A DNA stretch of 64,000 nucleotides from Rickettsiales bacterium. GTDB lineage: Bacteria > Pseudomonadota > Alphaproteobacteria > Rickettsiales > UBA3002. This document shows, piece by piece, positions 1,940 to 56,100 of this stretch (positions are counted from its first letter, which is position 1; each line of letters opens with the position of its first letter). The stretch is from positions 7,641 through 71,640 of the forward strand of contig JBBKVX010000009.1 of the NCBI GenBank assembly GCA_037968615.1, given 5' to 3'. The notes under the pieces are model-generated. The model saw only the letters and a program-made list of their open reading frames with translations. It ran no database searches and was not told where the DNA came from. The translations under genes and the position numbers were made by a program.

Positions 1940-2115
1940 GCCGGGCTTATAGCGGTTCCGGCACGATTTGAATGTGACAGAACGGTGAAGTTTTTTTTCT
2001 TTGCTGGGATTCCTAATGGCCGCTTGGTAGCGGTGTTGGGAACAGACATGCACACAGCATGCAATTCAGGGGCTAAGCGACCAATGAAGCTACGTTACAA
2101 ACAGGGAAGAGAAGC

Positions 2116-4293: not shown

Positions 4294-4294
4294 T

Positions 4295-32267: not shown

Positions 32268-32322
32268 CATCATACCCAAAAATTATAAATTCCGTAGTGG
32301 GCAAGCGCCCACAACACCAAAT

Positions 32323-32372
32323 TTGGGATGCATTGGGACAGGTTGTGACCATTTGGGAATAGTTGGGATTGC
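32323..32372. repeat. Five tandem 10-bp units with conserved TTGGGA core (helically phased array)
   Basis: TTGGGAtgca TTGGGAcagg TTGTGAccat TTGGGAatag TTGGGAttgc, with cores at 32323, 32333, 32343 (one mismatch), 32353 and 32363. The array sits in the macA / gmhB-like divergent intergenic region. Confidence 0.8.
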
Positions 32373-32402
32373 GCTGCGCGCGCGCACTCCTATAGTAGCG
32401 GT

Positions 32403-32891
32403 ATGAAAGCCCTGTTCCTCGACCGCGATGGCGTCATCAACATCGATTATGGATTCGTGCATAAGCGCGAAAATTTCCAGTTCGTCGATGGCATCCACGA
32501 ACTGGTGCAGTCCGCGAAAGCCAAAGGCTACGCCATCGTCATCGTCACCAACCAGTCCGGCATCGGCCGCGGCCTCTACACCGAAGCAGACTTTCACACG
32601 CTGATGGATTGGCTGAAAACCGAGCTTCCGTTCGACGCGCTCTATTATTCTCCTGAGCATCCCGACGCCGATTCCTACGACCGCAAACCCAATCCCGGCA
32701 TGATGCTACGCGCGGCCAAGGATTTGGGCATCGACCTGAAAAACTCGCTGCTGATCGGCGACCGCGAAACTGATATTCAGGCCGCAAAGAACGCCGCCAT
32801 CGGCACCAGCATCCTGCTGAATCCCGAAGGAAACCCTACCGCTGCCGATGTGTCCATCGGGCGGCTGGCGGAAGTGCAGGGGCTTTTGTAG
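32403..32891 (+). CDS. HAD-IIIA family phosphatase (GmhB / histidinol-phosphatase-like)
   Basis: FLDRDGVIN, VIVTNQSGIGRG, DRKPNPGMM, LIGDRETDIQAA. The GmhB Zn-binding cysteines (CPH...CxCRKP) are absent here (SPEHP...DRKP), so I do not assign gmhB. Confidence 0.75.
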   Translation: MKALFLDRDGVINIDYGFVHKRENFQFVDGIHELVQSAKAKGYAIVIVTNQSGIGRGLYTEADFHTLMDWLKTELPFDALYYSPEHPDADSYDRKPNPGMMLRAAKDLGIDLKNSLLIGDRETDIQAAKNAAIGTSILLNPEGNPTAADVSIGRLAEVQGLL

Positions 32892-32965
32892 GCCCCAAAA
32901 AACACCCTTGACGAACGAAGCCAAATAGCGCAACTTGATTTCTGTCCCATTAATAGGAGGCCGTT

Positions 32966-33481
32966 TTGGCGCATGGTGGTGTAAGAAAAGGTGCAGGTCG
33001 CCCCAAAGGCAAAGGCACGTACGGCGAACCAACGGAACGCATTCGCGTGCCCGCGAGCATGGTCGACCAGATCAAGCAATTCGCCATCACTGGCGGCTTG
33101 AAGCTACCCGTCTATGCCAGCCGCGTGCAGGCAGGCTACGCCATGCCCGGCGACGACTCGATGGAAGACCGGATGGATCTGGTATCCTATTTGGTCGAGG
33201 AACCTGAGGACACCTTCATGGTCTACGCCGCCGGCGACTCGATGAAGGATGCGGGCATCCGTGACGGTGACCTGATGCTGGTGAACCGCCGCATGAAACC
33301 CGCCAACGGCAAAATCGTCGTCGCCGCCGTCGAAGGCGCGATGACAGTGAAATACCTCATCATGAAAAACGGCAAAGCCTTCCTCATGCCCGCGAACCCG
33401 GCCTATAAGGAAATCCCGGTCGATCAGGAGCATGGCGTGGTGATCTGGGGCGTGGTGACCCGTTCCATTCAGGCACATTAA
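32966..33481 (+). CDS. S24 family self-cleaving peptidase, UmuD-like, with basic N-terminal arm
   Basis: TTG start with AGGAGG 5 nt upstream. Collinear with UmuD: VQA|GYAMPGDD (UmuD VQC|GFPSPAADY), nucleophile AAGDSM, general base in TVKYL. The N-terminus is GGVRKGAGRPKGKG. Confidence 0.8.
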   Translation: MAHGGVRKGAGRPKGKGTYGEPTERIRVPASMVDQIKQFAITGGLKLPVYASRVQAGYAMPGDDSMEDRMDLVSYLVEEPEDTFMVYAAGDSMKDAGIRDGDLMLVNRRMKPANGKIVVAAVEGAMTVKYLIMKNGKAFLMPANPAYKEIPVDQEHGVVIWGVVTRSIQAH

Positions 33482-33568
33482 AGAGCGTCCGCTTCAACCG
33501 ACATTGCTCGAAACAGCGGCTGACAGAGCGGTTTCAATGCGATAAACCTCATGGCCTAACCCGCCGAA

Positions 33569-34360
33569 ATGGCGCATGAGGGATCTATGTGGCTCACCAT
33601 CATTGAATTTCTTTCCTCCCCGCACGCACCGTACGTGTTCTGCGGCGTCATCGGCTTTGTGTTCCTCTACGGGCTTTTGGAAGGCTGGGCGCGGCTAAGC
33701 AGCGTGCGCGCGGCGGTGCGTCGCGCCACCAAACTGGTCGCCGACATCAACAGCACGCAAGGCTTCTACACTCAATTCGAAACACTGAACGACCAGTTCG
33801 CGGGGCAAAAACTGTTCGCGCGGCCATGGGCGGAGTTCGCCAAAACCGTGATCATCGACAGCAGCCGCGATTTGGTACGTATCAGCCGTCGCCCACAGGA
33901 ATTCTTCCATCAGGCCAGCCTGCTTGCGCCGCGCCTCAACCTGCGCCAGTTCAACGCCATGCCGGGCTACCTCATTAGCCTCGGCCTGTTCTTCACCTTC
34001 ATCGGGCTGGTGGCGGCTATTTCCGTGGCAGCGCGCGGCCTCGCGCATTCCGCCGATGTGGCGCAAACGCAGGCAGCACTCGTGCAACTGCTCGACATTG
34101 CCAGCGTGAAATTCATCAGTTCCGTGGCGGGCATTTCGCTCAGCATTCTGTTGTCGTTCGCGCAGAAAGCATGGCTCAACCGCGCGATGAACGACATCCA
34201 CCGCTTCTGCGAAACGGTGGAAACACGCACCCAGCTCGTCACCACCGAGCAGTTGCTCTATCAATGGCTGGTGGCGCAGGAGCAGACCACGCGCAGCTTC
34301 ACCCACCTTGCCGACGACATCGCCACCGAAGTGACCTTGCAGCTCAACCAGGCCAAATAA
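33569..34360 (+). CDS. MotA/TolQ/ExbB-family proton-channel-like membrane protein (short, ZorA-like head without tail)
   Basis: TM1 YVFCGVIGFVFLYGLL. The channel signature MPGYLISLGLFFTFIGLVAAI compares with P.iGLfGTV.GI, and FISSVAGISLSILLSF compares with AL..Ta.GL..aIp. A pre-channel segment reads PWAEFAKTV...PQEFF. The alternative start ATG 33587 has a GAGGGA upstream. Confidence 0.65.
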   Translation: MAHEGSMWLTIIEFLSSPHAPYVFCGVIGFVFLYGLLEGWARLSSVRAAVRRATKLVADINSTQGFYTQFETLNDQFAGQKLFARPWAEFAKTVIIDSSRDLVRISRRPQEFFHQASLLAPRLNLRQFNAMPGYLISLGLFFTFIGLVAAISVAARGLAHSADVAQTQAALVQLLDIASVKFISSVAGISLSILLSFAQKAWLNRAMNDIHRFCETVETRTQLVTTEQLLYQWLVAQEQTTRSFTHLADDIATEVTLQLNQAK

Positions 34361-34361
34361 C

Positions 34362-35096
34362 ATGCCGCACCACGAAGAATCGTCCGAACATTTCTTCACC
34401 GCGTTCACCGACCTGCTGGTCGGTGTCATCTTTTTGTTTATGCTGCTGCTGATGGTGTTCGGCCTCAACCTGAAACAGGACGAGGTGGTGGAAGAACCCA
34501 CCTTCACCAGCGACGAGATTCGTGCGCATGTGCTGACGGAAATCGGCAAGCGCATGGCGGAGGGCGGCACCGCGTTAAAGCTTGATCCCGCCAACGGCAT
34601 CGTGCGCTTGCCGGAAGAGCAGTTGTTCGAATCCGGCCAGTGGAAACTGTCGGAACAGGGGACGCAAATGGTGGTAACGCTGGCCAAGGTGCTGGCTGAG
34701 TTGCTGCCCTGTGCGGCGACGTCAACGGCGCCTTGCGACTGGTACACACAGCCTATCACCCTCGATTCCGTACTCATCGAAGGCCATACCGACAAGCGTC
34801 CCTTCAGCAGCCCGCAAGGCTACGGCAACTGGGAGCTTTCGGCTTTCCGCGCGATTAGTGTGTACGAGACCATGGTGGCGGCGCAGCCGCAGTTGGAGCA
34901 GGGCATTACTAATCTGGGCCGCGAGCCGCTGTTGGGTGTCAGTGCCTATGCCGACCGCCGCCCGGTCGACCGCGTGAACCTCGATCCCAACCGCCGCATC
35001 GACATTCGCTTCAACATGCACGCCACGGATTATCAGCCGAGATTGACCAAAAAAGCCGCGCCCAAACCCACCCCCATGCCCATACCTGCACCATGA
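34362..35096 (+). CDS. MotB/OmpA-like peptidoglycan-binding partner protein
   Basis: Single N-terminal TM helix with a conserved Asp (FFTAFTDLLVGVIFLFMLLL; compare MotB YADFMTAMMAFF). OmpA-like domain: IVRLPEEQLFESGQWKL...VLIEGHTDKRPF...GNWELSAFRAISV. The start lies 1 nt after the upstream stop. Confidence 0.75.
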   Translation: MPHHEESSEHFFTAFTDLLVGVIFLFMLLLMVFGLNLKQDEVVEEPTFTSDEIRAHVLTEIGKRMAEGGTALKLDPANGIVRLPEEQLFESGQWKLSEQGTQMVVTLAKVLAELLPCAATSTAPCDWYTQPITLDSVLIEGHTDKRPFSSPQGYGNWELSAFRAISVYETMVAAQPQLEQGITNLGREPLLGVSAYADRRPVDRVNLDPNRRIDIRFNMHATDYQPRLTKKAAPKPTPMPIPAP

Positions 35097-35680
35097 AAAT
35101 CGCCGTCACATGGCAGCAGGATTGGAACGAAAGTGGCGTGCGCCTTACCCGCGCCGACGACGCGCAGGCCGTGCGCCTTACCCACGCTGACATCGCCGCG
35201 CTGAACGAATACGACGCGCGGCTTTACGGCCTGCCGCACAGCATGGAAGCCATCCTGACCGTGCGCATCGAAGGGCGGATCGACCATCCCGAGTTCAGCG
35301 TGGACTGCACGTTGGAATCGGTACGCAGCTTGCAGATATGGCCGGTCTATCGCCGCGAGGGCGCACGCATGTTTATTGGCGCGCGCGCATTACGGCTTAA
35401 CCGTCATCAACTCGCGCTGTTCGTGGCGTTGGAGAACATGCAGGAGGCCGGGGCCGACATTGCTGCGCGTCTGCGCGCTTGGCCAGCGCTCGATGCGGCG
35501 CTCAACGCACCCAGCCATAGCCGCATTCTGGTGCAGGGGCGGGTGCCGCGCATTCTGATATCCACGCCCGCCGCCATGCCCGAGCAAGCGATGGTGCGTT
35601 CGCACGGAAAGTTACAGAAAGCGGCAGGGTTCGCCTGGGGCATGCTGCCGCGTCGGCGCTACGTGCTGGTCTCGGAATAA
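35093..35680 (+). CDS. Hypothetical 195-aa protein, third gene of the stator-like module
   Basis: ATGA start/stop overlap with the MotB-like gene and coding-like GC3. No motif recognised. The 3' end overlaps the convergent alpha-E gene by 22 nt. Confidence 0.55.
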   Translation: MKIAVTWQQDWNESGVRLTRADDAQAVRLTHADIAALNEYDARLYGLPHSMEAILTVRIEGRIDHPEFSVDCTLESVRSLQIWPVYRREGARMFIGARALRLNRHQLALFVALENMQEAGADIAARLRAWPALDAALNAPSHSRILVQGRVPRILISTPAAMPEQAMVRSHGKLQKAAGFAWGMLPRRRYVLVSE

Positions 35681-36612
35681 AGCGCGAAGAACGAGCGGTA
35701 GATGGCCTGATCGACCACGTTCAGGTTGAACTGGAACACATCAATGAACTCATGCAGTCCGTTGCCCAGCACTGTTTCAATGCTGGTGGAAGCGAGGGTG
35801 TTTTGTAGCGTGGCCATTTCTGCCTGCGCCGGCACTTTCACGTTCAGCTCCTTGGTGATGGCGGCGAGCGAACGCGCGGCGGTGTTGACGCAGCGGGCCA
35901 TGGAGCGCGGGAAGCCGGTATCGAAAATAAGGAACTCCGCCACTTCCTTGTAATGGATGCTGTGGCAATGTTTGCGGTACATTTCGAACGCGTTGGCCGA
36001 TTTCAGCACCGCGCCCCATTCCACGATGTCGTGCGGGGAATCGACGTATTCGGCACCGGGCAGCAACAGGAAATATTTCACATCGAGGATGCGAGCGGTC
36101 TTGTCGGCGCGTTCCAGCATGCGGCCCATGCGCGCGAAATGCCAGCCTTCGCCATGCGACATGGTGTTCTCGGTCAGCCCCGCAAACAGGTGGCTGGCGC
36201 GGCGCACCTCGACATAGAATTGCTGCAGGTTGCCAATGCTTTTGCGGCGGCTATGCTCGATTACCATATGGTACAGCGCGTTGATCTGCTCCCACATTTC
36301 GGGCGAGATCACGTCGCGCACGGTGCGCGCATTTTCACGCGCGCTGCACACGCAGCTGTAAATAGAGTTGGGGTTTTCCTTATCGAAGGTCAGGAAATAC
36401 AGCACGTTTTTTTCGCTGGCTTCGGCGTAGCGTTTCGAGAAATCGGCGTCGTCGCCCGAGGTGGTGACCAGCGGTTTCCATTGCGCCGTGCCGGGGGTGA
36501 GGCCCATGTCGAGCATCAGATGCACGTTCACCGCCACGAAGCGCGCAACATTCTCCGCCCGCTCCAGATAGCGGCTCATCCAATAGACGGCACTGGCGGT
36601 ACGGCTAAGCAT
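35659..36612 (-). CDS. Alpha-E domain protein (DUF403)
   Basis: [26 protein letters not shown]... is the characteristic alpha-E N-terminus. 8-nt overlap with the upstream ATP-grasp gene. Confidence 0.85.
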
Positions 36613-38044
36613 CGGCGAGCACCCATGTGTCTTTGCTGCCGCCGCCCTGCGACGAGTTCACCACAAGCGAGCCCTTGGTGAGCGCCACGCGCGTCAGCCC
36701 ACCGGGCAGCACGAAAATGGATTTTCCGTAGAGGATGTAGGGGCGGAAATCGACATGGCGCCCTTCGATGCCGTCGTCGGTGAGCGTCGGGCTGCGTGAC
36801 AACGACAAGGTAGGCTGCGCAATGTAATCGCGCGGGTTTTTCTTGATGCGCGCGGCGAAATCCTTGCGCTCGGCGGCGGTGGAGCGTGGACCGATCAGCA
36901 TGCCGTAACCGCCGGAAAGATTCACCGCTTTCACCACCAGCGAATCGAGGTTGGCGAGCACGTGCTCGCGCTGTTCCTTATCCCAGCAGGCGTAGGTCGG
37001 CACGTTGGGAATGATGGCTTCTTCGCCGAGGTAATACTGGATGATGGCGGGCACGTAAGCATACACCGCTTTGTCGTCGGCGATGCCGGTGCCGGGGGCA
37101 TTAGCGAGGGTGACATTGCCTTTGCGGTAGGCTTCCATGATGCCGGGCACGCCGAGCATCGAGTCCTCGCGGAAGGCTTTGGGGTCGAGATATTCGTCGT
37201 CGATGCGGCGGTAGATCACATCTACTTTTTCGTAGCCGCTGGTAGTGCGCAGCATCACTTTATCGTCGATCACCGCGAGGTCGGAGCCCTCGGCCAGCGG
37301 CACGCCCATCTGCTGCGCAAGGTAGGCATGCTCGAAATAAGCGGAGTTATAAATGCCCGGCGTCAGCACCACGATGCGCGGCGACCTCGAGCTGTTGGCC
37401 GGTGCCGCATGGTGCAGCGCCTGATAGAGATGCTCGGTATAATTCGAGACCGGGCGCACCTTCATGGCGGCGAACGCGTTAGGGAAAGTACGTTTCTGGA
37501 TGGCGCGGTTCTGCAGCACATAGGAGATGCCCGAGGGGCAGCGCAGATTATCCTCCAGCACGTAATAGGTGCCGCTCGCATCGCGCACAAGGTCGGTGCC
37601 GGTGATGTGAATCCAGATGCCACCCGGCGGTTTTAGGCCCTTGCATTGCGTGAGGTAGCAGGCGCTGGAGAGGATAAGGTCGGCGGGAATGATGCCGTCC
37701 TTGAGGATTTTCTGGTCGTTGTAAATATCGTCGATGAACATGTTGAGCGCTTTGATGCGCTGCTTCAGGCCCAGCTCCAGCTTCGTCCATTCCGCACCGG
37801 GAACCACGCGTGGAATGATGTCGAACGGGATAATCTTCTCGGTGCCGTCTTTGTCGCCATAGACGCTGAAAGTGATGCCTTGCTGGTAGAGCGCCAGTTC
37901 CGCCGTGGTCTGCAATTGGCGGAGCTCCTCGGCTTTGAGGGCGTTGACGTGTTTGATGAGCGGTTTTGTCACCGCCCGGGGCTTGCCGTTCGCACCGATC
38001 AACTCGTCGAAGAACCCTTCGGTCTGGTACGACTCAAAACCCAT
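36605..38044 (-). CDS. Circularly permuted type-2 ATP-grasp protein (DUF404/DUF407)
   Basis: [59 protein letters not shown] is typical of this family. Start chosen at ATG 38044 ([14 protein letters not shown]...), a 1-nt overlap with the upstream stop. The track start 38242 adds an Arg/His-rich non-coding-looking extension. Confidence 0.85.
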
Positions 38045-39909
38045 CAGGAGGTCACCTCCACCATTTTCACATCCACGGTCAGCGTTTCGGTTCCGCCGCC
38101 TTTGAAGATGGTGCCGCTGGTGGGAGTGGCGTCGATGTAGTTCCGGCCTGCGGCTACGCGCACATGGTCCTGTTCCACCATGCAGCCGTTGGTGGGATCG
38201 AACCCTCGCCAGCCGACATAAGGAATGTAGATTTCTACCCAAGCATGCGAAGCGTCGGACTGGATTTTATTCGCGTAATTCACGCCAGTATAAATGTAAC
38301 CCATGCGGTAGCGCGCGGGAATGCTAAGCAACCGCGCAAGGCAGATGAACAGATTGGCGAAATCCTGGCACACGCCCGCGCGCGAGGTGTAGACCTCGAA
38401 CGGCGTGGTACTGAGGGCGGTGACACCGGGCACGTATTTGTAATCACGGTAGATGGTGATGTTCATGTCCTTCAGCGTGGCGACGAGGTTGTAGTCGTTA
38501 CGCTCGACGAAGCTGGTGGCGTATTCCGTCAGCTCGCGCAGCTGCGTTTCCGGCAGCTCGGGCGGCAGCAAATAGGGCGTCATCATCTGGCGCTGCCACG
38601 GCATCCATACTAGCGGAATGGTGGAGCGACGGCGCGACTGGCTGAAATCGTCCGGCGGCATGGCGTAGATTTTCACGCGGCTGGTACTGGTGACGGTGAG
38701 TTCCGTGTAGGGCCGGTTGATGCTGTAATGGATCGACTGGTTGCCGAACACGTCCTCGTAGCGAATCTCTTCGCCCTCGGAGGAAATGATGAAACTGGCA
38801 TTGACGGTTTCTTGTATCGGGTCTTCCACCGGTTGCAGGCGGAACGTGTGCGTGCTGTGCTCCACCGGCTCGGAATAGCTGTAGGAGGTGGTGTGCGTGA
38901 GGTCGAACGTGCGGTAGGCCAGCAGCTCGCCCTCGGGCGTCTGGGTGATGGAGCGCACATTCACCGTCGATTGATGTAGCTGCGATTGCTCGGCGCGCAC
39001 GGCGGCGAATTTCTTACTTTCGTCGAGCGGTGGCTGGGTGGCGGGGTTCGGGAACAACGCCACCTGCTGGTTGTTTGGATGGCTGTTCCAGAAGATCGTG
39101 CCACGGCGCACGATGAGCATTTGCCCCGGCTGCATTTGCAGCCAGCTGCCCGCATCGAACGGGGCGGAGCTGATCATGAACGCGGTGCGGTAGGTGTCGC
39201 GCGGGTCGTGCAGGTCGAGCAGCATGGTCTCGGAATTGAAAGCCAACGTCTGGTCGGGCGGGGAGTGGCGCGTGTAATACAGCTCGCGGGCCGATTGCGT
39301 GCCATGGTAACTGACGACGGTGAGCCCGTCGGAGAGGCACATGTCGGCGCTGCCCAGCGCGTCGAGTTGTTCGAACCATTGCAGCACTGTTTCGGCCGGA
39401 ACATCGGCGAGTTTGCGCGCTTCTGTTTCGATGATCTTGCCGAGCAGGTAGCAGAAGGCCAGCTCCGAATCGGTGTTGCCCACCGGCTCAAGGAAGCGCG
39501 ATTTGTCGGTATGCATTTCGGCCAACTGCTCGCGGTCGAGATCGCCATTATGCATGAACAACCAGTCGTGCCCGGCGAAGCTGCGGCTGAACGGCTGGGT
39601 CTCGTGGTGGGTGTAGCCGCTGGCCGCGCCCTTGGCTTTGCAGAAGAACACGGTGGAGCGGAACACTTCCCAATCGGCCAGTTTTTCGAGCTGGATGTCG
39701 GTGCCGCGCGCCACCGGATCCTTTTTCACGATGGCGGCTTGATTATCGTTGGGGTACCACGCCACTCCCCATCCCAGCGGGTGCGTGCCGTCGGCTTGTG
39801 CCGGCAGCTTCACCTGAATGGAGGGGGAACTTAGGCTATCAAAGCTTAGCGCAAGAATGTCACTGGTAATATTGCCCAAGGGAGCTCCATAGAATGTGGT
39901 GCAATGCAA
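38044..39909 (-). CDS. Fusion protein: class-II (Ntn, YafJ-like) glutamine amidotransferase domain plus transglutaminase-like cysteine protease domain
   Basis: TTG start with AAGGA 7 nt upstream. The N-terminus [26 protein letters not shown] aligns with YafJ MCELLGMSANVPTDICFSF. The C-terminal half has Bact_transglu_N plus the core [28 protein letters not shown]...[22 protein letters not shown]. Confidence 0.75.
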
Positions 39910-39976
39910 AAGATAATCCTTTACGCTCTGTTGTCAAAGAGCGATGTGGAAACCTCGAATTCTGTAAGGAACATTG

Positions 39977-42900
39977 ATGGGCATGCGCGCGGCATTGTGT
40001 CATGTGACACACTACACCTACGATCGGCCGGTGGAGCTTGGCATCCAGACCATTCGTTTGCGTCCTGCGCCGCATACCCGCTCCCACATTCAATCTTACT
40101 CGCTGAAAATTACGCCCGCCGAGCATTTCATCAACTGGCAACAAGACCCCTTCGGCAACCATTTGGCGCGGGTGATCTTCCCCGAAAAAATCACCGAGTT
40201 CCGCGTCGAGGTTGATCTGATCACCGAGATCCGCGTGTTCAACCCGTTTGATTTCTTCCTCGAGGAATACGCCAAGGACTTCCCCTTCGCCTATGAGCCG
40301 CTTTTGAGAGAAGAGCTGGCGCCCTATCTGGAAGTGAAGGAAAATGGCACGTTGCAGACGGCGTTCCTCGCCGAGCATGCCGCGCAGAACATGGGCGTCA
40401 TCGATTTTCTCGTCGGCATTAATCAGAAGCTAAACCAATCGTTGCAGTACCTCGTGCGGTTGGAACCGGGCATTCAAACCTGCGAACAGACGCTGGAAAT
40501 GAAAAGTGGCTCCTGCCGCGACATGGCGTGGCTGCTGTGCCAGATGTTGCGCCAGCTGGGCTTCGCCACGCGCTTTGCGTCGGGCTACCTCATTCAACTG
40601 AAGCCCGATGTGAAACCGCTCACCGGCCCCGCAGGCACCGATGTGGACTTCACCGACCTGCATGCATGGACGGAGGTGTACCTCCCCGGCGCAGGCTGGG
40701 TGGGGCTTGACCCCACCTCGGGCCTGTTCGTGGGCGAGGGGCATATTCCACTTTGCTGCACGCCCAGCCCGCTCAGCGCCGCGCCCATCAGCGGTACCAT
40801 CGAGCCGTGCGAAGCCACGCTGCATCATGAGATGACGGTGACGCGCATCGACGAAGAAAGCCGCGTCACCAAACCCTACACCGACCAGCAATGGGCGGCG
40901 ATCGATGCGCTGGGTGCGCGCGTTGATGGCGATTTGAAAAAACGCGATGTGCGGCTGACAATGGGAGGCGAACCGACCTTCGTTTCCGCCAGCAACCAGA
41001 CCGGCGACGAATGGAACTTCACCGCTTTAAGCGACGAAAAGAAAACGATGGGCAACGCGTTGTTGCTGCGTTTGCGCGAGAAATTCGCCCCCGGCAGCTT
41101 GTTGCATTACGCGCAGGGAAAATGGTATCCCGGCGAGCTGTTGCCGCGTTGGGCCATGAACTGTTTCTGGCGCACAGACGCCGAACCCATATGGGAAAAC
41201 GATGCGTTGCTGGCTGACCCCGAACAGAAACTCGAACATAATTTAGCGACGGCAAAAACATTCCTCACCGCCCTCGCGGAAACATTAGGCATACCGCAAA
41301 GTTACGTGCTCGGTGCGCGCGAGGACACGCCGTATTATTTGTGGAAAGAACGCCGCCTGCCCATCGAAGGCGAAATACTGGCGGCCGATTTGCACGAGCA
41401 AGCCGAACGCGCCCGGGTGCAGAAGCTGATGGATCAGCAACTGAAAGACCCCGTCGCCTACGTGCTGCCGCTGCATTTCTCGCCGACGCGCAAAGGCTGG
41501 ATCAGCAACGGCTGGACGTTCCGTGGCGAACATATGGTGCTGTTGCCTGGCGATTCGCCCGCGGGCCTGCGCCTGCCGCTTGGTAGCTTGCCGCATGTGA
41601 AAGCATCGGAGAAAGAACTCTACCCCGAACGCGCGCCGAAGGAGCAAACGGGCAGCCTGCCCAAACGCGCCGCGCTGTTCAAGGCGTTGGCCTCGCACGC
41701 CAAAAAATCGTTGGGTGCGCCAGCATTTTTGGATGATGCGAACGGCCTCATCAAAAGCGCACTCTGCGCCGAAGTGCGCGGCGGGGTGCTGCATCTGTTT
41801 CTGCCGCCCGTGGCGCATATCGAGCATTTCCTCGAACTGGTTTCGGCCATCGAAATGGTGGCCGCTTCACAGAGCATTCCGCTGGTGCTGGAAGGCTACG
41901 CCCCGCCCAGCGACCAGCGCGTCACCAGCTTCAGCGTCACGCCCGACCCCGGAGTCATCGAAGTGAACGTGCAGCCCGCCGCCGATTGGCAGGCGATGAA
42001 AACCATCACCACCATCGTTTATGAAGAAGCACGCCAGACCGGCCTTTCCACCGAGAAGTTCCTGCTCGATGGGCGCGGCGTCGGCACTGGCGGCGGCAAC
42101 CATTTGGTGATGGGCGCAGCCAAAACCGAGGACAGCCCCTTCCTGCGCCGCCCCGATCTGCTGCAAAGCCTCATTACGTTCTGGCAGCATCACCCGGCGC
42201 TGTCGTACCTGTTCTCGGGCATGTATATCGGCCCCACCAGCCAATCGCCGCGCATCGACGAAGCGCGCCACGATTCGCTCTATGAACTTGAGATCGCCTT
42301 CGCACAAATTACGGATGGCATGAAGCCGGAAGCCGTCGATCGCGCGCTGCGTAATCTGTTGATCGATTTAACCGGCAACACCCACCGCGCCGAATTCTGC
42401 ATCGACAAATTGTTCAGCCCCGACGGCGCGCGCGGCAAGCTCGGCCTGTTGGAAATGCGCGGGTTTGAAATGACGCCACACCCGCAAATGAACCTGCTGC
42501 AAGGCCTACTCCTGCGCGCCTGCGTGGCGCATTTCTGGCAGCAGCCCTACCGCTATCCGCTGCAGCGCCACGGCACATCGTTGCACGACGCCTACATGCT
42601 GCCGCATTACGTGGAGCAGGATTTCCGCGCGGTGCTTGAGGTGTTGAAAGCCGGGGGCTACGATTTCCCATTCGATTGGTTCGCGCCGTTCTTCAGCTTC
42701 CGCTTCCCCAGCTACGGCGCGGTGCAATTAGGCGATGTCAGCATCGAGCTGCGCATGGCGCTCGAAGCATGGCCGGTGATGGGCGAAGAGATTGGCATGG
42801 GCGGCATGAGCCGCTCGGTGGATTCGTCGGTCGAGCGGCTGCAAGTGCTGGTGCGCGGGTTGGCCGATGCGCGCCACGCCGTGACCTGCAATGGCCGCCG

Positions 42901-43249
42901 CCTGCCGCTGCACCCCACGAGCGAACCGGGTTCGTATGTGGCTGGCGTGCGTTACAAAGCATGGGCGCCCAGCTCGTCGCTGCACCCGAACATTCCGGCG
43001 CATACGCCGCTGGTGTTCGACCTGCTCGATACGCATCACCAGCGTTCGCTGGGCGGCTGCATGTACCATGTCGCGCATCCCGGTGGCCGCAATTACGAAA
43101 CCATTCCGGTGAACGCCAACGAGGCCGAAGGCCGCCGCCTGTCGCGCTTCGAGGCGATGGGCCACACGCCGGGCCACATGGCCGTGCCCCCGCGCGAGGT
43201 CAACGCCGATTTCCCACACACGCTCGATCTGCGTCGCAGCCAGAACTAA
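39977..43249 (+). CDS. Large transglutaminase-family protein with DUF2126 region
   Basis: RAALCHVTHYTYDRPVELGIQTIRLRPAPH (Bact_transglu_N), SGSCRDMAWLLCQMLRQLGFATRFASGY...DLHAWTEVYLPGAGWVGLDPTSG (core), then a ~750-aa DUF2126-type region. ATG 39977 sits 6 nt after AAGGA. The track start is TTG 39974. Confidence 0.85.
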   Translation: MGMRAALCHVTHYTYDRPVELGIQTIRLRPAPHTRSHIQSYSLKITPAEHFINWQQDPFGNHLARVIFPEKITEFRVEVDLITEIRVFNPFDFFLEEYAKDFPFAYEPLLREELAPYLEVKENGTLQTAFLAEHAAQNMGVIDFLVGINQKLNQSLQYLVRLEPGIQTCEQTLEMKSGSCRDMAWLLCQMLRQLGFATRFASGYLIQLKPDVKPLTGPAGTDVDFTDLHAWTEVYLPGAGWVGLDPTSGLFVGEGHIPLCCTPSPLSAAPISGTIEPCEATLHHEMTVTRIDEESRVTKPYTDQQWAAIDALGARVDGDLKKRDVRLTMGGEPTFVSASNQTGDEWNFTALSDEKKTMGNALLLRLREKFAPGSLLHYAQGKWYPGELLPRWAMNCFWRTDAEPIWENDALLADPEQKLEHNLATAKTFLTALAETLGIPQSYVLGAREDTPYYLWKERRLPIEGEILAADLHEQAERARVQKLMDQQLKDPVAYVLPLHFSPTRKGWISNGWTFRGEHMVLLPGDSPAGLRLPLGSLPHVKASEKELYPERAPKEQTGSLPKRAALFKALASHAKKSLGAPAFLDDANGLIKSALCAEVRGGVLHLFLPPVAHIEHFLELVSAIEMVAASQSIPLVLEGYAPPSDQRVTSFSVTPDPGVIEVNVQPAADWQAMKTITTIVYEEARQTGLSTEKFLLDGRGVGTGGGNHLVMGAAKTEDSPFLRRPDLLQSLITFWQHHPALSYLFSGMYIGPTSQSPRIDEARHDSLYELEIAFAQITDGMKPEAVDRALRNLLIDLTGNTHRAEFCIDKLFSPDGARGKLGLLEMRGFEMTPHPQMNLLQGLLLRACVAHFWQQPYRYPLQRHGTSLHDAYMLPHYVEQDFRAVLEVLKAGGYDFPFDWFAPFFSFRFPSYGAVQLGDVSIELRMALEAWPVMGEEIGMGGMSRSVDSSVERLQVLVRGLADARHAVTCNGRRLPLHPTSEPGSYVAGVRYKAWAPSSSLHPNIPAHTPLVFDLLDTHHQRSLGGCMYHVAHPGGRNYETIPVNANEAEGRRLSRFEAMGHTPGHMAVPPREVNADFPHTLDLRRSQN

Positions 43250-52285: not shown

Positions 52286-53106
52286 GCGATCCCCCGTTTC
52301 TGGTAGATACGCTCTTCGCGTACGAAGTCGTCGAACGAATCTGCATCGCGCGTGAAACGGATGTTTTCTTTCGAGCCGAGGCCGAGAAACCCTTTATGGC
52401 CCAGCGCGTCTTTGAACAGGCCGATGGCGCGGTCTTGCAGCTCGCGGTCGAAATAGATCAGCACATTGCGGCAGGATATCAGCTGCATTTCCGCGAACAC
52501 GGCGTCTGTCACCAAACTGTGATCGGAGAAAACCACGTTGCGGCGTAGGCTGGCATCCAGCGAGGCTGCGCCATAGGCGGCGGTGTAGTAATCCGAGAGC
52601 GACGATTTGCCGCCGGATTTCTGGTGATTCTCGGTGAACAGTTGAATGCGGTCGAGCGCGTAGACCCCGGCCTCGGCGCGTTTGAGGGCGTCGGGGTTGA
52701 TGTCGGTGGCGTAGAACAGGGTGCGGTCTTCCAGCCCTTCTTCGCGGAACAGGATGACCAGCGAGTAGAGTTCCTCGCCGCTGCTGCAGCCCGCGATCCA
52801 CACTTTGAGCGACGGGTAGGTGCGCAGATGCGGCAGCACCTTTTCGCGCAATGCGCGGAAGTAGCTGGGGTCGCGGAACATCTCGCTCACCTGCACCGTC
52901 AGGAACCCGAGCAGCTCGGGAATCAGGTGCGAGTTATGCAGGATGAGGTCTTGAAGTTGCGAGTAGCTTTTGCAGTTGAAATGGTCTTTCGCCTGCCGCA
53001 AACGGCGCTTCACCGACGCCATGGAGTAGCCGCGGAAATCGTAGTGGTACTTGAGGAAAAGCGCTTCCAGCAACAACCGCAGTTCAATGTCATCGGTTTT
53101 TGGCAT
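52282..53106 (-). CDS. cheR: CheR-type SAM-dependent protein-glutamate methyltransferase
   Basis: YDFRGYSMASVKRRL..., SEMFRDPSYF, LKVWIAGCSSGEELYSLVILF, VFSDHSL...ISCRNVLIYF. Confidence 0.9.
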   Translation of the reverse strand: MPKTDDIELRLLLEALFLKYHYDFRGYSMASVKRRLRQAKDHFNCKSYSQLQDLILHNSHLIPELLGFLTVQVSEMFRDPSYFRALREKVLPHLRTYPSLKVWIAGCSSGEELYSLVILFREEGLEDRTLFYATDINPDALKRAEAGVYALDRIQLFTENHQKSGGKSSLSDYYTAAYGAASLDASLRRNVVFSDHSLVTDAVFAEMQLISCRNVLIYFDRELQDRAIGLFKDALGHKGFLGLGSKENIRFTRDADSFDDFVREERIYQKRGIA

Positions 53107-56100
53107 CAGCGGGGCATCCAGACACGCACCAGCGACAGAAGTTTTTCGACATCCAGCGGTTTGGCCATGTAATCGTTGGCGCCTGCTTCAAGGCAGCGTT
53201 CCTGGTCGTCGCGCATCGCTTTGGCGGTGAGCATGATGATGGGAAGTTTCTTCCATTCGCGCTCCTTACGAAGCGCGCGCGTGGCCGTCAGCCCGTCCAT
53301 TTCCGGCATCATCACATCCATCAGCACCAGGTCGATGGCGGTGGCGGCGCTGCTTTTGGTTTTCTCCATCAGTTCCAGCGCCTCACGGCCATTTCGGGCG
53401 ATCTGCACCTGCACGCCATGCGGCTCCAGAATGCTGGTGAGGGCATAGACGTTGCGGATGTCGTCCTCCACGATCAGGATGCGGCGGCCTTCCAGTACCG
53501 CGTCGCGGTTGCGGGCCTTCTCGATCATCTTCTGTTTATCGGGCGCCATTTCCGACACCACTTGGTGCAGGAACAGGCTCACTTCATCCAGCAAACGCTC
53601 CGGCGATTTCGCGCCCTTGATGATGATGGATTTGGAATAGCGACGCAGTTTCTGTTCGTCGGCGGCTTTCAAATCGCGTCCGGTATACACGATCACCGGC
53701 GGGAAGGAGTAGCTGTCTTCTTTACTGAGGGTCTCGAGCAGGTCGTAGCCCGACGTATCGGGCAGCGTAAGATCGAGCACCATGCAATCGAAGGTCGATT
53801 CCTTGAGCATGGCGAGGCATTCGGCGGCGGTGCCGACGGCGACGGTCTCTACGTCGCGCGTGGCCAGCAGCTTGCGCACGCTTTCGCGCTGCACCTCGTC
53901 GTCCTCGACGATCAGTACGCGGCGCAGGCGCTGCGAAAGTTTTGTCTCCAGTTTCTTCAGCGCGTCGGACAGCTCCTCGCGCTTCACGGGCTTCACCATA
54001 TAACCCACGGCGCCGAGCGACATGGCGGTTTGCGCGTAATCGCCCGCCGACACCACATGCACCGGAATATGGCGTGTGCGCGGGTCGCGCTTCAGGCGGT
54101 CGAGCACCGAGAGGCCGGAATTATCGGGCAGCCCCACATCCAGCACCACGGCGCTGGGCATGTATTGCCGCGCCACCACCAGCGCTTCTTCCGCCGTGCT
54201 GGCGATGAGGCATTGGAACTCCAGCTCATGCGCGAGGTCGTAGAGAATGCGCGCGAAGGATTCGTCGTCCTCCACCACCAGCAGCACGCGGCGGTTGCCG
54301 GCCAGAAGCTCTCGGTCGTCCTCGATGCGACGGATGGCGACATGCGGTGTCGTGGCCTGCGGTTCTGGCGTTTTCTCAGGCGCGCGCAGGATGGTCGCGT
54401 CGCGCTGCTGCACGTTCTGCGCACTGTAGATGGCGGGGATGAGGACGGTGAATACGCTGCCTTTACCCGGTTCACTGGTCAACTCGATATGGCCGCCCAG
54501 CAGGCGGGCCAGCTCGCGCGAGATGGATAGCCCAAGCCCCGTGCCGCCGTATTTGCGGTTGATGGTGCCGTCGGCTTGGCGGAACGCATCGAACACCGAT
54601 TGCTGCTGCTGCGGGTTGATGCCGATGCCGGTGTCGCGCACGGCGAAGGAAATCTTGCCCTCCTGCGGCGCGCTGACCTGCATGGTGATGCTGCCTTTTT
54701 CCGTGAACTTGAACGCGTTCGACAGCAGGTTCTTGAGGATCTGCTCCAACCGCTGGCGATCGGTCTCGATGAGGTCCGGACAGGTGGGGTCGAGCATGAT
54801 CTTGAATTCCAGATTCTTCTGCTCGGCGAACGGCTCGAACACGCGCGTCAGATCGGCCACCAGCCGCTTCATCGGCAGCGATTCGGAGCGCACTTCCATA
54901 TGCCCTGCCTCGATCTTCGATAGGTCGAGAATATCGTTGATGAGCGCCAATAAATCGTTGCCCGACGACTGGATGGTCTGCGCGTATTTCACCTGTTCCT
55001 CGCTGAGGTTGCCTTGGCTGTTATCGGCCAGCAGCTTGGCGAGGATGAGCGACGAGTTGAGCGGCGTGCGCAGTTCGTGCGACATGTTGGCGAGGAAGTC
55101 GGATTTGTATTGGCTGGCCTGTTCCAGCTCTTCCGCCTTCAACTGCACGCTGTTCTTGGCGCGCGTCACTTCGTCGCGCTGCACTTCCAAAAGTTGCGTT
55201 TGTTCTTCCAACTGCGCGTTGGTCTGCTCCATTTCCGCCTGTTGTTGCTCCAGCCGCACCTGCGATTCTTTCAGCGCGTTGCTTTGCTCTTCCAACTCCT
55301 CGTTCGACACTTTCAGCTCTTCGCTTTGCGCCTGAAGCTCTTCGGTCTGGCGTTGGGTCTCTTCCAGCAGGTTTTGCAATTCGGCACGATAGGTGGCCGA
55401 GCGCATGGCCACGCCAATCGATTCGGCGGCCATTTTCAGAAGTTCCAGCGACAGTGGATCGACGGGATGCACAAAGCCCAGCTCGATGACGGTGTTCACC
55501 GCATTATCCGCCGTGCCCGGGGTGATAAGCAGGTGGCGCGGGTTGCCTTTGCCCAGCGCCGAACCCACGGTGAGGTAGTTGTCGGGCACTTCGTTGATCA
55601 TCACCGTGCGCGCGTCCTTCACCACTTGGCCGAGCAACCCATCGCCCGCCTTGAACTGTGTCGGAATGTTATTGTCTGCGGGCACGCCGTAGGTGGCGAT
55701 GCGTGAAAACACGCCGCTTTGCTGTGCAAAAATGGCACCGGCATGGGCATCGAAATATTCCGCGAGGAAGCTGAGGATATTTTCGCCAAGCTTCTCGATG
55801 CGTTGCTCGCCGACCAGCGCGTTGCTGAGCCCAACTTGTCCGGTCTGCAGCCATTCCTGCCGCTGCCGTGCCAGCATCGAGCGGCGAAGCAGATGCGCCA
55901 CCGCCAGCGACAGAAGCACGCCACACAGGCCCGTCAAAATGCCGCTGATGACCGCGACGCGGTAGGCCTTGTTCGTTTCCGAAAGCCGTTGCGTGCGAAT
56001 GTCCTGCTGTTCCTGCTGCATCACGATCACGATGCTGCGGACTGCGTCCATTTCCTTTTTGCCGCGATCGGTCTCCACAACTTTAAGCGCCGCTTGAAGC

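What the first reader, a model, noticed from the sequence alone, without database searches (positions are those of the whole stretch)
33569..35680. Orphan stator-like three-gene module: short MotA/ExbB-type channel, MotB/OmpA-type anchor and an unknown 195-aa protein (a 'tail-less Zorya-like' unit)
Three translationally coupled genes are present (1-nt gap, then an ATGA overlap).

- **Gene 1:** carries the proton-channel signatures of the MotA/TolQ/ExbB 5:2 motor family (GLFFTFIGL and AGISLSILLSF). It also has a pre-channel segment (PWAEFAKTV...PQEFF) that, as I remember it, resembles the ZorA head. At 263 aa it lacks the long ZorA tail.
- **Gene 2:** has the plug/TM helix with the proton-relay Asp (FTDLLVG) and an OmpA-like peptidoglycan-binding domain.
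- **Gene 3:** has no motif I recognise.

No flagellar, Tol-Pal, TonB/ExbD, gliding or Zorya effector (ZorC/D/E) genes are in the window. The module is wedged between a housekeeping phosphatase and a conserved cluster on the opposite strand, whose last gene it overlaps by 22 nt. A peptidoglycan-anchored ion-driven motor with an unknown cytoplasmic partner is the architecture used by Zorya anti-phage systems, so this could be a minimal uncharacterised relative or another envelope-sensing device.
Basis: partly seen in the sequence, partly recalled or inferred. Interest (0 to 1): 0.8.

Follow-up and report, generated by a model that had tools for sequence, protein, structure and literature searches.

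The report
Tail-less, nuclease-free Zorya-like motor module
A conserved three-gene operon in an uncultured alphaproteobacterium encodes a stripped-down relative of the Zorya anti-phage system (the membrane motor without its long tail, its cell-wall anchor, and only the first domain of the nuclease), showing that evolution keeps this motor even without any DNA-cutting partner.

Summary

- **Gene 1** (257 aa) is a type I ZorA motor. It ends about 35 residues into the tail.
- **Gene 2** (244 aa) is a full-length ZorB, with the channel Asp (D17) and an OmpA-like peptidoglycan-binding domain.
- **Gene 3** (195 aa) is not an orphan. It is a stand-alone homologue of the first ~200-250 residues of the ZorD nuclease (PADLOC E 7e-12; Foldseek's only significant PDB hit is EcZorD).

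ZorC, the ZorD Snf2/nuclease part and the ZorA tail are all absent.

The same tightly packed triad is found in every related locus long enough to show it. All named genomes carrying it are uncultured Alphaproteobacteria. The flanks are chromosomal and non-mobile. All three genes are under purifying selection (dN/dS 0.06-0.25).

I read this as a reduced, nuclease-free derivative of type I Zorya. It most likely forms a peptidoglycan-anchored ion-driven unit whose cytoplasmic face engages the ZorD-N-like protein. I found no description of it in the literature. Its function is inferred, not shown.

The parts
33587..34360 (+). Gene 1: tail-less type I ZorA-like motor subunit (257 aa; an alternative upstream ATG at 33569 would give 263 aa). 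Sub-parts: TM1 ~33626-33694; cytoplasmic domain with beta-hairpin ~33695-33940; TM2 ~33941-34036; TM3 ~34064-34162; short tail-base helix ~34226-34357.
   Evidence: PADLOC ZorA1 E 3e-45, matching profile positions 10-261 of 636. NCBIfam antiphage_ZorA_1 scores 128 bits, below the 190-bit cut-off. The family profile aligns to EcZorA residues 17-254. AF2 model pLDDT 83.7. Foldseek hits ZorA chains with TM 0.65-0.75. T137, S179 and E83 are invariant in the family.
34362..35096 (+). Gene 2: ZorB-like anchor subunit (244 aa). TM helix ~34389-34481 with the channel Asp D17 (34410-34412). OmpA-like peptidoglycan-binding domain ~34614-35027.
   Evidence: PADLOC ZorB1 E 2e-63, full length. PDB ZorB 8vvn_B E 8e-19. 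Pfam OmpA 27.4 bits. D17, EGHTD, LSxxR, NRRID and two Cys are invariant across 15 family members and 2 canonical ZorB.
35093..35680 (+). Gene 3: stand-alone homologue (195 aa) of the first ~200-250 residues of ZorD. It has no helicase or nuclease domain. The start overlaps the gene 2 stop (ATGA).
   Evidence: PADLOC ZorD1 E 7e-12, matching profile positions ~60-210 of 1012-1208. AF2 pLDDT 94.9. The only significant Foldseek PDB hit is EcZorD 8qy7, E 1.2e-6. The family HMM hits canonical ZorD residues 57-253 and 31-232. About 17 stand-alone clusters among 1.84 billion representatives.
32966..33481 (+). Accessory gene, linked only in the window's sub-clade: UmuD/LexA-like S24 autoprotease (171 aa). 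It has a conserved basic 45-aa N-terminal extension, cleavage site A56-G57 and catalytic S92/K129.
   Evidence: Pfam Peptidase_S24 E 2e-29. NCBIfam UmuD subfamily 124 bits, above the 110-bit cut-off. PDB UmuD 8gmt E 3e-23. Adjacent to the triad in the window, L001, L002-4, L021, L026 and L027, in two orientations.
32908..32939 (+). Conserved promoter-like element of the S24 gene: TTGACG (32908-32913), N16, GCAACTTGAT (32930-32939).
   Evidence: The same TTGACG...GCA(T/A)CTTGA(T/A) arrangement lies upstream of the S24 gene in the window, L001, L002/3, L021/26 and L027. Its function is inferred from position only.

Best explanation
The module is a reduced, nuclease-free derivative of a type I Zorya system, kept as a functional operon in the chromosomes of an uncultured alphaproteobacterial lineage.

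**Shown**
- Gene 1 is a ZorA motor domain that stops ~35 residues into the tail.
- Gene 2 is a complete ZorB with the channel Asp and a peptidoglycan-binding domain.
- Gene 3 is a free-standing copy of the N-terminal sub-domain of ZorD.
- The three genes always occur together, tightly packed and under purifying selection.
- There is no ZorC, no Snf2/nuclease domain and no long tail in any locus examined.

**Inferred mechanism**
1. Five ZorA-like and two ZorB-like subunits form a peptidoglycan-anchored, ion-driven 5:2 unit. The nearly invariant C-terminal helix of gene 1 acts as the minimal pentameric collar needed for assembly.
2. When the envelope is perturbed, ZorB engages the cell wall, and ion flow through D17/T137/S179 turns or switches ZorA.
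3. ZorC, the ZorD catalytic half and the ZorA tail are all gone. The retained ZorD-N-like protein therefore most probably docks directly on the retained cytoplasmic face of ZorA/ZorB.
4. The gene 3 protein is the module's only cytoplasmic read-out or regulator. The output is non-nucleolytic: signalling or control of ion flux.

In the window's sub-clade a UmuD-like autoprotease may regulate the module or be regulated by it.
For: **Identity**
- PADLOC hits: ZorA1 3e-45, ZorB1 2e-63, ZorD1 N-terminus 7e-12, and nothing else.
- PDB sequence hits are to ZorA and ZorB.
- The gene 1 model matches ZorA at TM 0.65-0.75, against <=0.5 for TolQ/ExbB.
- The gene 3 model (pLDDT 94.9) has a single significant PDB match, EcZorD.
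- The match is reciprocal. phmmer with gene 3 finds bona fide ZorD proteins, and the gene 3 HMM hits ZorD residues 57-253 and 31-232 of two canonical systems.

**Functional residues kept**
- ZorB D17 corresponds to EcZorB D26. ZorA T137/S179 correspond to EcZorA T147/S184. All are invariant.

**Conservation**
- The triad is found in all loci long enough to judge: L001, L006, L007, L009, L010, L012, L014, L015, L017-L021, L023, L026, L027 and L029.
- Gene 1 family members are all ~257 aa and 50-90% identical.
- dN/dS: gene 1 0.06-0.10, gene 2 0.12-0.19, gene 3 0.19-0.25; flanking housekeeping genes 0.08-0.17.

**Derived rather than ancestral**
- Only 9 of 185,579 species representatives carry it, all Alphaproteobacteria MAGs.
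- Best scores go to particular ZorA1/B1/D1 sub-models, and a canonical alphaproteobacterial Zorya I (L025) shares the ZorB1 and ZorD1 ones.

**Not mobile**
- No members in IMG/VR or on plasmids.
- The flanks are housekeeping genes.
Against: - Nothing was tested biochemically. The 5:2 assembly, ion flow and the contact between gene 3 and ZorA are all inferences.
- In E. coli Zorya, every tail truncation abolishes defence. Deleting the whole tail (residues 223-729) abolishes motor assembly. ZorD co-localisation with ZorAB is lost in a tail-tip deletion (PMC11946911). A tail-less motor that still recruits a ZorD-like domain therefore runs against the only experimental model.
- The Ca2+-site residue EcZorA E89 is an invariant Lys here, so coupling between motor and tail base may differ.
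- Gene 3 evolves much faster than gene 1: 53-61% identity where gene 1 is 87-90%. That is not what a tight, static interface predicts.
- Whole genomes could not be searched, so ZorC or ZorD encoded elsewhere is not excluded.
- The biological role (defence or housekeeping) is open.
Confidence: 0.6

Rival explanations
1. Proto-Zorya. The triad is the ancestral minimal form, from which type I Zorya arose by growth of the ZorA tail, gain of ZorC and fusion of a Snf2 nuclease onto a gene-3-like adaptor. It is not a secondary reduction.
For: The module is self-contained, well conserved and chromosomal, with vertical synteny in one sub-clade. The domain boundaries are clean rather than ragged.
Against: The distribution is extremely narrow: 9 of 185,579 species, in one alphaproteobacterial lineage. 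Type I Zorya, by contrast, is spread across Gram-negative phyla (PMC11946911). The three proteins score far better against some ZorA1/B1/D1 sub-models than others, which suggests they nest inside type I diversity. No rooted tree was made.
Confidence: 0.15
2. The third protein acts independently of the motor, for example as an Arg-rich DNA- or RecA-associated factor working with the UmuD-like S24 protein. It is merely co-expressed with ZorAB.
For: Most family members are basic (pI 9-11). The S24/UmuD-like gene is adjacent in the whole sub-clade in two arrangements. In canonical Zorya the soluble partners act on DNA.
Against: The S24 gene is absent from most triad loci. Some gene 3 homologues are acidic or neutral. 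Gene 3 is never found without the ZorA/ZorB pair, and its start overlaps the zorB stop. No DNA-binding fold was detected.
Confidence: 0.1
3. A canonical DNA-degrading Zorya whose ZorC and ZorD effectors are encoded elsewhere in the genome.
For: Only the 64-kb window and flanks of at most 10 kb in related loci could be inspected.
Against: No ZorC or ZorD in the window or in any of the ~20 related loci. The ZorA tail, which is required for effector recruitment in E. coli, is missing. A ZorD N-domain paralogue next to zorB would then be unexplained.
Confidence: 0.07
4. A decaying, non-functional remnant of a type I Zorya system.
For: All the losses (tail, ZorC, ZorD C-terminus) are what deletions would produce. 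One metagenomic protein (P0060) looks like a gene 1-gene 3 fusion that has lost gene 2.
Against: Lengths and gene order are conserved over 50-90% sequence identity in ~20 loci. dN/dS is 0.06-0.25. The catalytic and anchor residues are invariant. The AF2 models have high confidence.
Confidence: 0.03
5. An ordinary flagellar (MotAB), Tol (TolQR) or Ton (ExbBD) stator pair.
For: It belongs to the same 5:2 motor superfamily. Weak NCBIfam MotB-type hits fall on the OmpA-like domain only.
Against: All those hits are far below their cut-offs and cover only the PG-binding domain. Pfam MotA_ExbB is not hit. The fold match to TolQ/ExbB is TM 0.3-0.5, against 0.65-0.75 to ZorA. No TolA, TonB, flagellar or Pal genes are nearby.
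Confidence: 0.01

Closest known systems
Type I Zorya (ZorA-ZorB-ZorC-ZorD; E. coli NCTC 9026 EcZorI, PDB 8qyd/8qy7; Shewanella ANA-3 ZorAB, 8vvn)
   Same: The ZorA motor fold with its cytoplasmic beta-hairpin and the Thr/Ser ion filter. ZorB with the channel Asp, paired Cys and an OmpA-like PG-binding domain. The third protein is homologous to ZorD residues ~30-250. Gene order A-B-(D) on one strand with overlapping junctions.
   Different: ZorA ends at the equivalent of EcZorA ~254 of 729, so the ~500-residue tail, including the lipid-binding Leu rings, is missing. There is no ZorC. There is no ZorD Snf2/nuclease half, nor the rest of its N-terminal domain. The Ca2+-site Glu (E89) is replaced by an invariant Lys. 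The module sits in housekeeping chromosomal contexts, not defence islands or mobile elements.
Type III Zorya (ZorA-ZorB-ZorF-ZorG)
   Same: A ZorAB pair whose soluble partners have no recognisable nuclease domain, so a Zorya-type motor with a non-nucleolytic partner is not without precedent.
   Different: ZorF and ZorG (DUF3348/DUF2894) are unrelated to gene 3. Type III ZorA is reported to keep a long tail (PMC11946911). PADLOC ZorA3/ZorB3 models match only weakly (E 2e-3 and 9e-9).
Engineered EcZorA tail deletions (residues 223-729, 359-592 and 435-729 deleted)
   Same: Natural gene 1 resembles a ZorA truncated just after the tail base.
   Different: In E. coli the full tail deletion abolishes motor assembly, and all tail truncations abolish defence. 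The natural protein keeps ~35-44 strongly conserved residues beyond TM3, and it is maintained by selection.
Flagellar stator MotAB with cytoplasmic stator-binding proteins (YcgR, FlgX)
   Same: A PG-anchored 5:2 unit whose cytoplasmic face is bound by a small soluble regulator. This is the closest analogy for how gene 3 could act.
   Different: There is no sequence or fold similarity between gene 3 and PilZ-type proteins. There is no flagellar context. The A subunit is ZorA-type.
UmuD / LexA S24 autoproteases (for the linked neighbour gene)
   Same: The S24 fold, an Ala-Gly cleavage site and a Ser/Lys dyad. Closest to UmuD.
   Different: No umuC partner in the window. It has a conserved, basic 45-aa N-terminal extension that is found in neither UmuD nor LexA.

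Membership tests
Type I Zorya system | ZorA motor domain (3 TM helices, cytoplasmic domain with beta-hairpin, Thr/Ser ion filter) | tested here: met
   PADLOC ZorA1 3e-45. Profile alignment to EcZorA 17-254, with T147/S184 matching invariant T137/S179. Foldseek TM 0.65-0.75 to ZorA chains.
Type I Zorya system | Long pentameric cytoplasmic ZorA tail (~500 residues), essential for defence | tested here: not met
   The protein is 257 aa and ends at the equivalent of EcZorA ~254. All ~60 family clusters that appear full-length are ~250-270 aa. NCBIfam ZorA_1 scores 128 bits, below the 190 cut-off.
Type I Zorya system | ZorB with conserved TM Asp and peptidoglycan-binding domain | tested here: met
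   PADLOC ZorB1 2e-63, full length. 8vvn_B E 8e-19. D17, EGHTD, LSxxR and NRRID are invariant.
Type I Zorya system | ZorC (EH-signature DNA-binding protein) | tested here: not met
   No ZorC hit in the module, among the other large window ORFs scanned or in any related triad locus. Canonical loci L025 and L030 do have it.
Type I Zorya system | ZorD with Snf2-type ATPase/nuclease C-terminal domain | tested here: not met
   Gene 3 is 195 aa and matches only ZorD profile positions ~60-210. There are no helicase or nuclease Pfam hits.
Type I Zorya system | ZorD N-terminal sub-domain | tested here: met
Type I Zorya system | Protection against phage | not testable with these tools
   This needs expression and phage challenge. 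Context argues neither way: the module is not in defence islands or on mobile elements.
5:2 ion-driven motors (MotAB/ExbBD/TolQR/ZorAB superfamily) | A5B2 stoichiometry and ion-driven rotation | not testable with these tools
   Only monomer models could be made. No multimer prediction was available.
5:2 ion-driven motors (MotAB/ExbBD/TolQR/ZorAB superfamily) | A-subunit fold and B-subunit TM Asp | tested here: met
Flagellar stator MotAB / Tol-Pal / Ton | Family-specific A/B sequence signatures and partner genes (FliG-facing MotA domain; TolA/TonB; ExbD/TolR-type B subunit) | tested here: not met
   No Pfam MotA_ExbB hit. NCBIfam Mot/Tol models score far below their cut-offs. TolQ/ExbB TM is 0.3-0.5. 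No partner genes in the window.
Type II / type III Zorya | ZorE (HNH), or ZorF and ZorG | tested here: not met
   PADLOC gives no ZorE, ZorF or ZorG hits. ZorA2/A3 and ZorB2/B3 match only weakly.
UmuD/LexA S24 autoprotease (neighbour gene 32966-33481) | S24 domain, Ala-Gly cleavage site, Ser/Lys dyad | tested here: met
   Pfam 2e-29. NCBIfam UmuD subfamily 124 bits, above 110. Alignment to UmuD 8gmt. A56-G57, S92 and K129 were read from the sequence.
UmuD/LexA S24 autoprotease (neighbour gene 32966-33481) | UmuC partner (for UmuD) or winged-helix DNA-binding domain (for LexA) | tested here: not met
   No Y-family polymerase among the window ORFs scanned. LexA TIGR00498 scores 75.7 bits, below 110.95, and matches only the C-terminal part.

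The most novel reading that the evidence does not exclude
The module is a domesticated, nuclease-free Zorya descendant that works as an envelope-to-cytoplasm mechanosensor. The peptidoglycan-anchored tail-less motor reports envelope breach, by phage or by wall damage, through the ZorD-N-like adaptor. In the window's sub-clade, the adaptor relays to a UmuD/LexA-like autoprotease, coupling a 5:2 rotary motor to an SOS-like proteolytic switch. As a corollary, the first ~250 residues of ZorD would be the motor-docking module of all type I Zorya systems.
Probability: 0.1. Interest if true: 0.85.

Novelty: new variant of a known kind. Interest (0 to 1): 0.6.

Why it matters
[quoted passage not shown] It also concludes that the tail is essential both for motor assembly and for recruiting the nuclease (PMC11946911). 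Here is a natural family, kept by purifying selection, that has dispensed with the tail, with ZorC and with the nuclease. It retains exactly one piece of ZorD.

- **A role for the ZorD N-terminus.** This points to a specific, testable role for the first ~250 residues of ZorD, whose function is uncharacterised: they may be the part that talks to the ZorAB motor.
- **A tractable minimal system.** The three small proteins offer a way to ask what a Zorya motor senses and how it signals.
- **Defence hardware in a core genome.** The module may be an example of defence hardware being domesticated into the core genome of a bacterial lineage.

Tried and rejected
- **Metagenome scan with gene 3.** A scan with the gene 3 alignment could not be run because no block was conserved enough. 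The gene 1 alignment was used instead.
- **L009 helicase.** The 1165-aa helicase downstream of the triad in L009 was suspected to be a detached ZorD. PADLOC shows it is not.
- **P0082.** This 217-aa protein looked like a second kind of stand-alone ZorD-N protein. Its contig (L030) is a canonical Zorya I chopped by frameshifts, so it was dropped. P0080 is probably a similar case but was not checked.
- **Mobile elements.** No family members were found on viral contigs or plasmids. The only plasmid hits are canonical ZorA genes.
- **Structure and phage families for gene 3.** Foldseek against viral structures gave nothing, and PHROGs gave nothing for genes 1 and 3.
- **Regulatory elements.**
  - No Rfam element in 32300-36000, and no sigma-70 consensus promoter or above-background terminator there.
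  - No conserved motif upstream of gene 1 across loci, and no k-mer shared between the S24 and gene 1 upstream regions in L026.
- **PF28082.** The local Pfam copy lacks PF28082 (ZorA-like_t1), so its curated description could not be read. It appears only as a precomputed label.
- **Literature.** Searches for ZorA-like, Zorya-like, tail-less ZorA and PF28082 returned nothing.
Full report
**Observation.** The three + strand ORFs exist as described: 33569-34360, 34362-35096 and 35093-35680.
- Gene 1 stops at TAA 34358-34360, one base before the gene 2 ATG.
- The gene 2 TGA overlaps the gene 3 ATG as ATGA.
- Gene 3 overlaps the convergent Alpha-E gene (35659-36612) by 22 nt.
Every homologue begins M-W and is ~257 aa, the ATG is preceded by GAGGGA, and the database gene call for this contig is 257 aa.
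It encodes a UmuD/LexA-type S24 autoprotease.
- The 366-aa minus-strand ORF at 33695-34795 is read as a shadow ORF, because all the homology lies on the + strand.

**Gene 1.** All PADLOC matches are ZorA models. The best is ZorA1 at E 3e-45, but it covers only positions 10-261 of a 636-position profile.
- NCBIfam gives antiphage_ZorA_1 at 128 bits, below the 190-bit cut-off. This is expected if two thirds of the model is missing.
- A profile of the family aligns end to end with EcZorA residues 17-254.
- The ion-filter residues EcZorA T147 and S184 correspond to T137 and S179, both invariant in the family. The Ca2+-site residue E86 corresponds to invariant E83, but E89 corresponds to an invariant Lys.
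- The AF2 model (pLDDT 83.7) shows TM1, a cytoplasmic domain with a beta-hairpin, TM2, TM3 and one further helix at residues 220-256.
- Foldseek puts the model on ZorA chains (TM 0.65-0.75, E 5e-9 to 5e-6). TolQ and ExbB follow far behind (TM 0.3-0.5, E > 0.01).
- Gene 1 is therefore a ZorA motor with only the base of the tail.

**Gene 2.** The best match is ZorB1 at E 2e-63 over its full length, and PDB ZorB 8vvn_B at E 8e-19.
- D17 (34410-34412) is the counterpart of EcZorB D26.
- The OmpA-type motifs EGHTD, LSxxR and NRRID, and a Cys pair, are invariant across 15 family members and two canonical ZorB proteins.

**Gene 3.** It has no Pfam or NCBIfam hit, but four PADLOC ZorD1 models match it. 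The best is E 7e-12, always at profile positions ~50-210 of 1000-1200.
- An exhaustive phmmer search of 1.84 billion representatives found only 22 proteins. About 17 are stand-alone proteins of 170-280 aa. Two long hits, of 724 and 1005 aa, were confirmed by PADLOC to be genuine ZorD proteins.
- The AF2 model is very confident (pLDDT 94.9). Its only significant PDB match is apo EcZorD 8qy7 (E 1.2e-6, prob 1.0, TMq 0.52).
- A profile search of PDB sequences also returns only EcZorD, residues 23-162, and weakly (E 0.12).
- The family HMM hits residues 57-253 and 31-232 of the ZorD proteins of two canonical type I systems (L025 Azospirillum oryzae, 72 bits; L024, 61 bits).
- Gene 3 is therefore a free-standing copy of the first sub-domain of ZorD. 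In EcZorD this lies within the 502-residue N-terminal domain that packs against the nuclease domain, and full-length ZorD is autoinhibited (PMC11946911).

**Conservation.** The gene 1 family has ~60 clusters at 90% identity. Apart from a few fragments, they are ~250-270 aa and 50-87% identical to the window protein, with a mean column identity of 68%.
- Every related locus with enough sequence has the same order: short zorA, zorB, gene 3. The junctions overlap or are separated by 1-10 nt.
- None has a long ZorA, a ZorC or a full ZorD.
- Against the closest relatives, dN/dS is 0.06-0.10 for gene 1, 0.12-0.19 for gene 2 and 0.19-0.25 for gene 3. The flanking Alpha-E and GltB genes give 0.08-0.17.
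- All three genes are therefore functional. Gene 3 evolves fastest: 53-61% identity where gene 1 is 87-90%.

**Distribution and context.** A scan of one genome per species (185,579 species) found 9 loci. All are uncultured Alphaproteobacteria MAGs, labelled Rickettsiales, 'Azospirillum' or Alphaproteobacteria.
- The window's ABC-F protein has its best named relatives (77-84% identity) in the same kind of MAGs. One of these lies on the contig that carries triad locus L007.
- Flanking genes differ between loci and include che genes, sugar metabolism, DNA repair and efflux. One sub-clade keeps the same downstream neighbours (aminotransferase, PAP2, SecF, TerC, SDF), which indicates vertical inheritance.
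- No member was found on viral contigs or plasmids.
- Around the module the window holds MacAB-type and RND efflux genes, an Alpha-E/CP-ATP-grasp/transglutaminase cluster, GltBD, sensor kinases and other housekeeping genes. There are no defence, flagellar, Tol/Ton or UmuC genes.

**The S24 neighbour.** The 171-aa protein is closest to UmuD (NCBIfam 124 bits, above the 110 cut-off; PDB 8gmt E 3e-23).
- It has the cleavage site A56-G57 and the S92/K129 dyad.
- It carries a strongly conserved basic N-terminal extension (GGxRxGAGRPKGK..YGEPTERIRVPxSMVDxIKxF).
- It has its own conserved promoter-like element, TTGACG-N16/17-GCA(T/A)CTTGA(T/A).
- It is adjacent to the triad in every locus of the window's sub-clade for which flanks exist. 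It is upstream on the same strand in the window, L001 and L027, and downstream and convergent in L002-4, L021 and L026.
- It is absent from all other triad loci.
- Because these loci share one rearranging neighbourhood (Alpha-E cluster to GltB), the linkage is suggestive, not proof.

**Mechanism (inferred).** The hardware is that of a peptidoglycan-anchored 5:2 ion-driven unit. With a cell-wall-anchored B subunit, any output has to leave through the cytoplasmic face of ZorA.
- That face consists of the cytoplasmic domain plus a ~35-44-residue helix whose sequence is almost invariant (RTQLxTTEQLLxQW..Q....R....A..IA.EV).
- In E. coli, removing the whole tail from residue 223 abolishes motor assembly. 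I therefore take this stub to be the minimal pentameric collar.
- The only piece of ZorD that survives is its first sub-domain, while every other candidate partner has been lost: ZorC, the rest of ZorD and the tail.
- The simplest reading is that this sub-domain's partner is the ZorAB core itself. Gene 3 would then be the module's docked regulator or read-out.
- With no nuclease, the output must be something else. It could be a signal, perhaps involving the S24 autoprotease where present. It could instead be control of ion flux.
- This conflicts with the E. coli result that ZorD co-localisation needs the tail tip. It is therefore a hypothesis. I put identity at ~0.9 and the docking and read-out mechanism at ~0.35.

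**Origin.** Two observations favour secondary reduction from a type I Zorya over an ancestral form. The distribution is very narrow, and the three proteins score best against particular ZorA1/B1/D1 sub-models; a canonical alphaproteobacterial system (L025) shares the ZorB1 and ZorD1 ones. This was not tested with a rooted tree.

**Novelty.** The Zorya literature held here describes types I-III. It states that long ZorA tails occur in all subtypes. Searches for tail-less or ZorA-like variants found nothing. A Pfam label (PF28082, ZorA-like_t1) is attached to these proteins in precomputed tables, so the gene 1 family may be catalogued. I found no description of the triad or of the stand-alone ZorD-N protein. 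I class it as a new variant of a known kind.

Noticed in passing
window 32966-33481 (+), promoter-like element 32908-32939: A UmuD-like S24 autoprotease without umuC. It has a conserved basic 45-aa N-terminal extension and a conserved TTGACG...GCAxCTTGAT promoter-like element, followed by a GTCCC/GGGAC motif. It is always adjacent to the triad in the window's sub-clade, in two orientations.
   Followed up: partly
window 35659-43249: An Alpha-E / circularly permuted ATP-grasp / GATase-transglutaminase / DUF2126-transglutaminase cluster (a predicted peptide-modification system). It is present, absent or repositioned between close relatives (L001, L002, L021, L026). L026 keeps only a 95-aa Alpha-E fragment just upstream of the triad, which looks like a rearrangement scar.
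   Followed up: partly
window 4295-9388 (-) and 2116-4293 (+): Two very large ORFs (1697 aa and 725 aa) with no Pfam family. The 1697-aa ORF has only a weak PADLOC DEDDh match (38 bits). L007/L008 also have an unannotated 1398-aa protein upstream of their triad; homology between the two was not checked.
   Followed up: no
window 54196-54285 (-): ARAGORN calls a 90-nt tRNA-Ala(CGC) with the anticodon at position 31. It lies inside the 1144-aa CHASE3/GAF hybrid histidine kinase ORF (53106-56540), so it is probably a false positive.
   Followed up: no
protein P0060 (293 aa; metagenomic contig of 9.6 kb): One protein joins the first ~200 residues of a gene 1 homologue to the last ~90 residues of a gene 3 homologue, as if gene 2 had been deleted. 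This is a possible decayed copy of the triad.
   Followed up: no
L030 (contig_36915), 874-7669: A canonical type I Zorya whose genes are each split into 2-4 pieces, probably by indel errors in a long-read assembly. Such fragments can masquerade as short ZorD-N or ZorA proteins in database searches.
   Followed up: partly
window 33695-34795 (-): A 366-aa ORF antisense to genes 1-2, with no homology support. It is a typical shadow ORF of GC-rich DNA.
   Followed up: no
gene 1 residue K86 (window 33842-33844): The second Glu of the EcZorA Ca2+ site (E89) is an invariant Lys in the short-ZorA family, while the first (E86, here E83) is kept. This suggests that a salt bridge replaces the metal site linking the cytoplasmic domain to the tail base.
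   Followed up: partly
L029 1547-6625; L006 59-7927: In other genomes the triad lies next to an Lhr helicase / metallophosphatase / ATP-dependent ligase repair cluster (L029), or directly after a complete che operon (L006). No neighbour beyond the triad is consistent across all loci.
   Followed up: partly
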